This document shows positions 37,546 through 37,904 of a stretch of DNA of 64,000 nucleotides, piece by piece (position 1 is the first letter of the stretch; the number at the start of each line of letters is the position of its first letter). Below the pieces are notes generated by a model, which was not told the DNA's origin, did not search any database, and saw nothing but the letters and a program-made list of their open reading frames with translations. The DNA comes from Escherichia coli (lineage in GTDB: Bacteria; Pseudomonadota; Gammaproteobacteria; Enterobacterales; Enterobacteriaceae). The position numbers were made by a program, and so were the translations under genes. The stretch lies in assembly GCF_003334305.1 (NCBI RefSeq), contig NZ_QOWS01000004.1; one strand, written 5' to 3'.

Positions 37546-37712
37546 TGTTCTCTTCTTCAGGTTAAAAAATAAGGCGCAACGAAGATAACAAACCGCCGCG
37601 TTTAATGAAATGAGCAGCCTCTCCCTGACGCAAATTTTGCACAAAAAATAGGCTTTAGTGATTTGTTTTTGTTCAAAATCATGCCAAATCCGTGATCGGG
37701 GTAAAAAAAAGG

Positions 37713-37740
37713 TTGCATGAAAACGCGAGCGGAGTATAGT
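37713..37740 (+). promoter_or_regulatory. Sigma70-type promoter for the tRNA-fMet gene
   Basis: TTGCAT (-35), a 16-bp spacer, then TATAGT (-10), followed by a GC-rich discriminator (gcgc) about 10 nt before the tRNA 5' end; this is typical of a stringently controlled stable-RNA promoter. Confidence 0.6.
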
Positions 37741-37753
37741 GCGCATCCACGGA

Positions 37754-37830
37754 CGCGGGGTGGAGCAGCCTGGTAGCTCGTCGGGCTCATAACCCGAAGG
37801 TCGTCGGTTCAAATCCGGCCCCCGCAACCA
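37754..37830 (+). tRNA. metV: Initiator tRNA-fMet (CAU anticodon; metZ/metW/metV type)
   Basis: cgcggggtggagcagcctggtagctcgtcgggctcataacccgaaggtcgtcggttcaaatccggcccccgcaacca shows the C1 (unpaired with A72), the three G-C pairs in the anticodon stem, the CAU anticodon and an encoded 3' CCA, all hallmarks of the initiator tRNA. A single copy is present in this window. Confidence 0.95.
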
Positions 37831-37837
37831 ATTATTG

Positions 37838-37864
37838 AACACCCTAACGGGTGTTTTTTTGTTT
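37838..37864 (+). terminator. Rho-independent terminator downstream of tRNA-fMet
   Basis: aacaccc taac gggtgtt stem-loop followed by TTTTTTTGTTT. Confidence 0.7.
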
Positions 37865-37874
37865 CTGCTCTCCC

Positions 37875-37903
37875 AAAAAAAAAGCGCCATTCAGCGCCTT
37901 TTT
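37875..37903. terminator. Bidirectional terminator-like hairpin between the tRNA and the amiC 3' end
   Basis: aaaaaaaaa GCGCCATTCAGCGCC ttttt: a short GC stem flanked by an A-run and a T-run, so it can act in both orientations; it ends 2 nt before the amiC stop codon. Confidence 0.5.
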
Positions 37904-37904
37904 A

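What the first reader, a model, noticed from the sequence alone, without database searches (positions are those of the whole stretch)
37546..37904. Single-copy initiator tRNA-fMet locus (K-12 carries three tandem copies at this position)
The mltA–amiC spacer holds exactly one tRNA-fMet gene with its own strong promoter and terminator. In the K-12 reference, as I recall it, this locus is a tandem triplet (metZ-metW-metV). Tandem tRNA copy number here therefore differs between strains, and this one carries the minimal state, which affects initiator tRNA dosage and may mark the lineage.
Basis: partly seen in the sequence, partly recalled or inferred. Interest (0 to 1): 0.45.

Follow-up and report, generated by a model that had tools for sequence, protein, structure and literature searches.

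The report
Initiator tRNA array shrunk to one
This E. coli sequence has one initiator-methionine tRNA gene where the K-12 reference has three in a row; this is a rare but recurrent loss of identical repeat units, sometimes only an assembly error, and it does not mark a lineage.

Summary
The mltA–amiC spacer (37546-37904) holds exactly one tRNA gene (37754-37830, +, anticodon CAT). It is 77/77 identical to K-12 metZ/metW/metV. K-12 MG1655 does carry three tandem copies here.

The window spacer equals the three-copy spacer minus exactly 220 bp, which is two 110-bp units, with no other change. Promoter and terminator are the K-12 ones.

The window is 100% identical over 41.7 kb to E. coli A7 (orangutan isolate, NZ_CP028767.1).

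Among 5,426 complete E. coli genomes with the same flanks, about 109 have one copy, 116 have two and about 3,283 have three. A further 94 or more have one copy next to a genomic island.

The one-copy state is scattered. It occurs in K-12 derivatives, O104:H4 and O157:H7, whose clone-mates have three copies. The window's closest relatives, including A28 (4 SNPs and 1 indel in 48.7 kb), all have three. The lineage-marker idea is therefore not supported.

Many one-copy genomes also show a collapsed leuQPV or glyVXY array, so some of these calls are assembly artefacts. A7 itself keeps leuQPV ×3, glyVXY ×3 and five tandem tRNA-Arg genes, so a real deletion is somewhat more likely here, though unproven without reads. 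The dosage effect is inferred from the literature.

This is ordinary, known biology.

The parts
36448..37545 (-). mltA coding sequence (left flank of the spacer)
   Evidence: RefSeq annotation of the 100%-identical record A7, converted with window = A7 position - 3750857. The start codon is seen as CAT at 37543-37545.
37702..37748 (+). metZ-type promoter: A-tract 37702-37710, -35 TTGCAT 37713-37718, 16-nt spacer, -10 TATAGT 37735-37740, GC-rich discriminator GCGCATCC 37741-37748
   Evidence: Identical to K-12 over the 214 bp upstream of the tRNA. The knockout primer in PMC3017606 (tgaaaacgcgagcggagtatagtgcgcatccacgga) matches 37718-37753, and that paper maps down-mutations in and next to this -10 box. 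The generic consensus scan did not call it, because the -35 matches only 3 of 6 positions.
37754..37830 (+). Single initiator tRNA-fMet gene (fMet1 type, G46, encoded CCA end)
   Evidence: ARAGORN and Rfam tRNA at 61.4 bits. It is 77/77 identical to K-12 metZ, metW and metV, and to metY of strain A7. The sequence shows the C1xA72 mismatch, A11:U24, and G29-G31:C39-C41.
37837..37863 (+). Intrinsic terminator of the tRNA transcript (8-bp stem, 4-nt loop, T-run)
   Evidence: Terminator scan. RNA fold -11.1 kcal/mol, z = -3.27, 0 of 200 shuffles as good. Identical to the K-12 sequence after metV.
37875..37906 (-). Hairpin plus U-run directly after the amiC stop codon; probable amiC terminator (inference)
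   Evidence: Minus-strand fold -12.4 kcal/mol, z = -2.55. The terminator scan did not call it.
37905..39158 (-). amiC coding sequence (right flank of the spacer)
   Evidence: RefSeq annotation of A7, converted to window coordinates.

Best explanation
The locus is the well-known metZWV initiator-tRNA operon of E. coli, contracted from three tandem genes to one. The remaining gene is a normal tRNA-fMet1 gene. It is transcribed from the same stringently controlled sigma-70 promoter as in K-12, a few bases upstream of the mature 5' end. Transcription ends at the same intrinsic terminator. The contraction removed exactly two 110-bp units (77-bp tRNA plus 33-bp spacer). The most likely cause is unequal homologous recombination or replication slippage between the perfectly identical 77-bp repeats, which leaves no scar. 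The event is recent and private to this strain (E. coli A7 or an identical genome). It is one of many independent occurrences of the same event in E. coli. Together with metY, the strain then has two initiator tRNA genes instead of four. From published work this should roughly halve initiator tRNA supply, with a cost in rich medium and cold, and possibly a benefit in poor medium.

Shown: the anatomy, the identity to K-12, the exact 220-bp difference, the population distribution, and the intact other arrays in the same assembly.

Inferred: the deletion mechanism, that the deletion exists in the organism and not only in the assembly, and the physiological effect.
For: There is one tRNA, of initiator type, identical to metZ/W/V. 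K-12 has three copies with a 110-bp period. The alignment shows a clean 220-bp gap and otherwise K-12-identical promoter and terminator. The A28 intergenic region with its array collapsed in silico is 359/359 identical to window 37546-37904.

Two-copy alleles exist with either spacer type: 40 at >=99% identity and 76 at about 98.9%. This is what stepwise unit loss predicts.

The same assembly (A7, 100% identical to the window over 41,701 bp) keeps leuQPV x3, glyVXY x3 and a five-copy tRNA-Arg array. It is therefore not an assembly that collapses short tandem tRNA arrays in general. A7 has one further initiator gene, metY.

Literature: tRNA-fMet level follows gene number, and delta-metZWV is cold-sensitive, slower-growing and initiates less accurately (PMC3017606). 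delta-metZWV is viable but growth-impaired (PMC11480407). [quoted passage not shown] 2014, as cited in PMC9981150).
Against: No reads are available, so a local assembly collapse cannot be excluded. This locus is demonstrably mis-assembled in some public genomes. At least 11 of the 60 listed one-copy genomes also have a one-copy leuQPV, against 0.66 expected, Poisson P about 1.5e-10. O104:H4 2011C-3493 has one-copy met and gly arrays, while other O104:H4 assemblies, including isolates I recall as being from the same 2011 outbreak, have three met copies. ST648 has an 'N' in place of the array. Another genome of the same sequencing project (A23) is also one-copy. One-copy records cluster by sequencing project.
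Confidence: 0.6

Rival explanations
1. Assembly artefact: the strain really has three copies, and the assembler or polisher collapsed the 297-bp array of near-identical 110-bp units into one.
For: One-copy records at this locus are strongly enriched for a collapsed leuQPV array in the same genome (11 shared genomes between the two 60-row lists versus 0.66 expected). Three of the 15 glyVXY one-copy genomes (HS13-1, TUM2826, 16843) are also one-copy for met next to the island, and 2011C-3493 is in both lists. Clone-mates disagree: O104:H4 assemblies show 1, 2 or 3 copies, and K-12 derivatives J53, ME8067 and C3026 have 1, C600 has 2 or 3, and MG1655 has 3. One-copy records cluster by project, for example the WP*-ESBL, CP0756xx STEC and CP0672xx wastewater series. 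A23, from the same project as A7, is also one-copy. ST648 has an N at the array.
Against: The A7 assembly resolves three comparable arrays: leuQPV x3, glyVXY x3 and tRNA-Arg x5. If collapse were purely technical, arrays of nearly the same geometry should collapse about equally often. Instead glyVXY is one-copy in 15 genomes against at least 203 for the met array.
Confidence: 0.35
2. Inherited lineage state: a clade of E. coli carries a single copy by descent, either ancestrally or from an old fixed deletion, so the state marks the lineage.
For: Array size differs between Enterobacterales species: among 120 species representatives with the same -10/discriminator/tRNA arrangement, three copies in 47, two in 40, one in 12 and four in 2. 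Different stable states therefore exist at deeper levels.
Against: None of the 13 closest genomes over the upstream 10.8 kb shares the single copy. A28, 99.99% identical over 48.7 kb, has three copies. One-copy genomes occur in phylogenetically distant clones whose relatives have three. About 94% of E. coli genomes with these flanks have three copies.
Confidence: 0.03

Closest known systems
E. coli K-12 metZWV operon (tRNA-fMet1 genes metZ, metW, metV; NC_000913.3 2947387-2947683)
   Same: Same position between mltA and amiC. The 214-bp upstream region with the promoter is identical, the 77-nt tRNA is identical, and the terminator is identical.
   Different: One gene instead of three, and both 33-bp inter-gene spacers are absent (a 220-bp difference). 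There are two small differences in the A-run downstream of the terminator.
metY, the fourth initiator tRNA gene upstream of rimP-nusA-infB
   Same: It encodes an initiator tRNA. In strain A7 its sequence is identical to the window's gene.
   Different: It lies at a different locus with a different promoter and is outside the window. In K-12 it carries A46, the fMet2 form (PMC3017606); in A7 it carries G46.
Engineered E. coli with fewer initiator tRNA genes (Kapoor et al. 2011, PMC3017606; Samhita et al. 2014, J Bacteriol 196:2607, known here only through citations in PMC9981150 and PMC11480407)
   Same: Reduced initiator tRNA gene number at the same locus. These strains give the expected phenotype: lower tRNA-fMet, cold sensitivity, relaxed initiator selection, and a medium-dependent fitness effect.
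   Different: Those are laboratory constructs or promoter mutants. Here a natural isolate's genome record shows a scarless two-unit contraction, and no phenotype has been measured.
Copy-number change in bacterial tRNA genes by recombination (e.g. Pseudomonas fluorescens SBW25 duplications, PMC10954465)
   Same: tRNA gene dosage changes through repeat-mediated rearrangement.
   Different: The SBW25 events are large tandem duplications selected in the laboratory. Here the change is a 220-bp contraction of a short array.

Membership tests
Bacterial initiator tRNA (tRNA-fMet) | Anticodon CAU in a canonical tRNA fold | tested here: met
   ARAGORN reports tRNA-Met with anticodon cat. Rfam RF00005 scores 61.4 bits against a gathering score of 29.
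Bacterial initiator tRNA (tRNA-fMet) | Unpaired 1:72 (C1xA72), three consecutive G:C pairs in the anticodon stem (29-31:39-41), and A11:U24 | tested here: met
   Read directly from the sequence CGCGGGG UG GAGC AGCCUGGUA GCUC G UCGGG CUCAUAA CCCGA AGGUC GUCGG UUCAAAU CCGGC CCCCGCA ACCA. The role of the three G:C pairs is described in PMC3017606. That C1xA72 and A11:U24 are identity elements is from my own knowledge.
Bacterial initiator tRNA (tRNA-fMet) | Identity to the characterised E. coli tRNA-fMet1 (G46) | tested here: met
   77/77 identical to K-12 metZ, metW and metV.
metZWV operon of E. coli | Located between mltA and amiC, with the metZ promoter and the post-metV terminator | tested here: met
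   Annotation of the identical record and alignment to K-12.
metZWV operon of E. coli | Three tandem tRNA-fMet genes | tested here: not met
   Only one gene is present. This is a contracted allele of the operon.
Repeat-mediated array contraction (unequal recombination or slippage) | The loss is a whole number of repeat units, the breakpoints lie inside identical repeats, and there is no scar | tested here: met
   The gap is 220 bp = 2 x 110 bp. The collapsed A28 spacer is 359/359 identical to the window.
Repeat-mediated array contraction (unequal recombination or slippage) | Intermediate alleles exist in the population | tested here: met
   116 two-copy genomes, retaining either spacer type.
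Repeat-mediated array contraction (unequal recombination or slippage) | The contraction is present in the organism's DNA (reads or PCR) | not testable with these tools
   No read data are accessible.
Assembly collapse artefact | Other short tandem arrays are collapsed in the same assembly | tested here: not met
   A7 has leuQPV x3, glyVXY x3 and tRNA-Arg x5.
Assembly collapse artefact | Excess read depth over the retained unit | not testable with these tools
   No read data are accessible.

The most novel reading that the evidence does not exclude
The contraction is real. The scattered one- and two-copy alleles (about 2-4% each of complete E. coli genomes) would then reflect a frequent change in initiator-tRNA gene dosage that selection favours in slow-growth or nutrient-poor niches. 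That is what the laboratory competitions of Samhita et al. 2014 predict. The metZWV array would act as a natural tuning knob for translation-initiation capacity and fidelity.
Probability: 0.25. Interest if true: 0.35.

Novelty: already known. Interest (0 to 1): 0.15.

Why it matters
The gene, its promoter, its function and the consequences of lowering its copy number are textbook or published knowledge. This exact sequence is already in RefSeq, annotated as tRNA-Met.

Two modest points come out of the check. First, the array is not a stable strain marker. One- and two-copy forms recur in unrelated clones at a few per cent. Second, a measurable share of those records are assembly collapses. Anyone counting tRNA genes from 'complete' genomes, for example for tRNA adaptation indices or host choice for engineered initiator tRNAs, should validate short tandem tRNA arrays against reads.

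If the contraction in this strain is real, the strain is a natural two-gene initiator background. It could be used to test the published trade-off between rich and poor medium.

Tried and rejected
1. The generic sigma-70 scan gave no promoter in 37400-38000. I kept the promoter assignment because the sequence is identical to the characterised K-12 metZWV promoter, and I note that the -35 is weak by consensus.

2. Plain BLAST coverage could not separate copy numbers, because pieces were joined. I replaced it with junction queries (37 nt + array + 37 nt) gated by E-value, so that only a contiguous full-length match passes. The three-copy threshold was slightly loose: a 625-bit partial match passed. 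The count of 3,283 may therefore include up to about 100 genomes with other downstream flanks.

3. The roughly 1,900 genomes not counted were examined. They carry a type VI secretion (T6SS) island directly after the third tRNA, or in one case an assembly gap. The island-flank one-copy count (94) is a lower bound, because island flanks vary.

4. My first coordinate guesses for the A7 arrays missed and were corrected.

5. Samhita et al. 2014 (PMC4097586) is not held, so it is used only as cited by others. One literature search failed because of queueing.

6. I found no paper describing natural metZWV copy-number variation across E. coli isolates. A 2026 preprint compares six laboratory or probiotic strains and reports near-identical metZWV sequences in all of them.

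7. The lineage-marker reading was considered and rejected.

8. Counts in draft genomes of other species carry the same collapse risk and are used only as context.

Full report
**What is there**

The window holds a single tRNA gene, tRNA-Met with anticodon CAT, at 37754-37830 on the + strand (ARAGORN; Rfam tRNA 61.4 bits). It sits in the 359-bp spacer 37546-37904. On the left is the start of mltA (- strand, CAT at 37543-37545). On the right is the stop of amiC (- strand, TCA at 37905-37907).

The sequence has the marks of a bacterial initiator tRNA: a C1xA72 mismatch, A11:U24, and three G:C pairs at 29-31:39-41. It also has G46 and an encoded CCA end. It is 77/77 identical to each of K-12 metZ, metW and metV.

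Downstream there is an intrinsic terminator, a hairpin at 37837-37856 followed by a T-run. It folds at -11.1 kcal/mol, z = -3.3.

Upstream, the generic promoter scan found nothing at its threshold. However, the 214 bp before the tRNA are identical to K-12. They contain TTGCAT (37713-37718), a 16-nt spacer, TATAGT (37735-37740) and a GCGC discriminator. This is the metZWV promoter in which Kapoor et al. mapped down-mutations. Their knockout primer matches 37718-37753 (PMC3017606).

A second hairpin with a U-run on the minus strand, right after the amiC stop, is probably the amiC terminator. This is an inference.

**Comparison with K-12**

NC_000913.3 annotates metZ, metW and metV at 2947387-2947683, a 110-bp period, between mltA and amiC.

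The alignment shows that the window equals the K-12 spacer minus exactly 220 bp, which is two units of 77-bp tRNA plus 33-bp spacer. The only other differences are two small ones in an A-run after the terminator.

**Source and nearest relatives**

Window 16900-58600 is 100.000% identical (41,701 bp, no mismatch) to E. coli strain A7, NZ_CP028767.1, from orangutan faeces.

Over the 10.8 kb upstream flank, the 13 next-best genomes all have multi-copy arrays. These include A28, TUM12355, FCI51, NCTC9088 and UC4224.

A28 comes from the same sequencing project and was isolated from an echidna. It differs from the window by 4 SNPs and 1 indel in 48.7 kb and has three copies. If its array is collapsed in silico, its intergenic region is 359/359 identical to window 37546-37904. 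The contraction is therefore recent and private to A7. It is not a lineage character.

**Census**

I used junction queries (37 nt flank + array + 37 nt flank) with an E-value gate that only a contiguous full-length match can pass. Among 5,426 complete E. coli genomes the counts were:

- One copy: 109.
- Two copies: 116, with either spacer retained.
- Three copies: about 3,283.

The sum of one- and two-copy genomes (225) agrees with the 226 genomes that covered at least 80% of a 1.7-kb query.

The remaining roughly 1,900 genomes have a different right flank. An island starting with the type VI secretion (T6SS) genes tssB/tssC follows directly after the third tRNA. At least 94 of these are one-copy. 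In all, at least 203 genomes (3.7%) show a single copy.

The one-copy genomes are phylogenetically scattered:

- K-12 derivatives J53, ME8067 and C3026.
- O104:H4 2011C-3493 and 2009EL-2050.
- O157:H7 Xuzhou21.
- LF82, NC101 and APEC IMT5155.

Other members of these clones have three copies.

**Real deletion or artefact?**

Two control arrays of nearly the same geometry were tested in the same way. The one-copy form of glyVXY occurs in 15 genomes. The one-copy form of leuQPV occurs in 425.

The lists overlap far more than chance allows. Eleven genomes are shared between the 60 listed met one-copy records and the 60 listed leu one-copy records, against 0.66 expected (Poisson P about 1.5e-10). 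Four of the 15 gly one-copy genomes are also met one-copy.

Further signs point the same way:

- Assemblies of the same clone disagree. O104:H4 shows 1, 2 or 3 copies, and C600 shows 2 or 3.
- One-copy records cluster by sequencing project.
- One genome (ST648) has an 'N' in place of the array.

A substantial share of one-copy records are therefore assembly collapses.

Two results argue against that for this particular sequence. First, the A7 assembly keeps leuQPV x3, glyVXY x3 and a five-copy tRNA-Arg array. Second, the three arrays differ about 30-fold in how often they appear contracted, which a purely technical cause would not predict.

I rate a real deletion in A7 at about 0.6, an artefact at about 0.35, and an inherited lineage state at about 0.03. 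Only reads or PCR can decide.

**Mechanism and consequence**

The loss is a whole number of units, it is scarless, and both possible two-copy intermediates exist. This is the signature of unequal homologous recombination or replication slippage between the 77-bp perfect repeats. The mechanism is inferred.

A7 has one other initiator gene, metY (4246594-4246670). Its sequence is identical to the window's gene, with G46 rather than the A46 of K-12. That gives two initiator genes instead of four.

The published evidence on dosage is as follows:

- Kapoor et al. report that tRNA-fMet levels follow gene number. Loss of metZWV gives slower growth, cold sensitivity and relaxed initiator selection.
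- A systematic deletion study found delta-metZWV viable but impaired.
- Samhita et al. 2014, as cited in PMC9981150, found that losing some copies is harmful in rich medium and beneficial in poor medium.

**Wider context**

The same -10/discriminator/tRNA arrangement is found across Enterobacterales. Among 120 species representatives, arrays had three copies in 47, two in 40, one in 12 and four in 2. The rest were cut by contig ends. These are mostly draft assemblies with the same collapse risk.

**Verdict**

The finding is a contracted allele of a thoroughly known operon, already in RefSeq. It is not a lineage marker, and whether it is real in the organism is unproven. Interest is low. The one practical result is the warning that short tandem tRNA arrays are unreliable in a few per cent of 'complete' genomes.

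Noticed in passing
window 37831-37904; loci L004 2652-4043, L005, L007: In roughly 1,900 of 5,426 complete E. coli genomes, an island beginning with the type VI secretion (T6SS) genes tssB/tssC is inserted directly after the third tRNA-fMet (CFT073, Ecol_276, EC02). The window has the island-free state, with amiC directly downstream. At least 94 island-bearing genomes are also one-copy, including LF82, NC101 and APEC IMT5155.
   Followed up: partly
L006 (NZ_CP008697.1, ST648) about 2350-2360: The tRNA array is replaced by a single 'N' (…CATCCACGGNCACTTATG…), followed by genes annotated as phosphoglycerate dehydrogenase and KpsF/GutQ. This is an assembly gap or misjoin exactly at this locus.
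   Followed up: partly
L137 24161-25296 (A7 3654160-3655295): Strain A7 has five tandem tRNA-Arg genes next to tRNA-Ser, upstream of csrA. K-12, as I recall, has four (argQ, argZ, argY, argV). So one tRNA array appears expanded in the same genome in which the initiator array is contracted.
   Followed up: no
L016 21595-21671 (A7 metY): metY of A7 is identical to the metZ-type gene (G46). This strain therefore encodes only the tRNA-fMet1 species, unlike K-12, whose metY has A46.
   Followed up: yes
E. coli genome collection: The one-copy form of leuQPV appears in 425 complete genomes, 344 of them with 95-99% flank identity, which may be a lineage-level state. The one-copy form of glyVXY appears in only 15. 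The reason for the 30-fold difference between arrays of similar geometry is unexplained.
   Followed up: no
loci L017-L136: The TATAGT-GCGC discriminator placed 9 nt before the initiator tRNA is conserved across Enterobacterales, including Yersinia, Pantoea, Dickeya and Brenneria. Array sizes range from 1 to 4 copies with periods of about 105-250 bp.
   Followed up: partly
window 37866-37885: The A-run between the two terminators differs from K-12: the window has GCTCTCCCAAAAAAAAAGCG and K-12 has GGTCTCCC-ATAAAAAAGCG. A28 carries the same version as the window.
   Followed up: no
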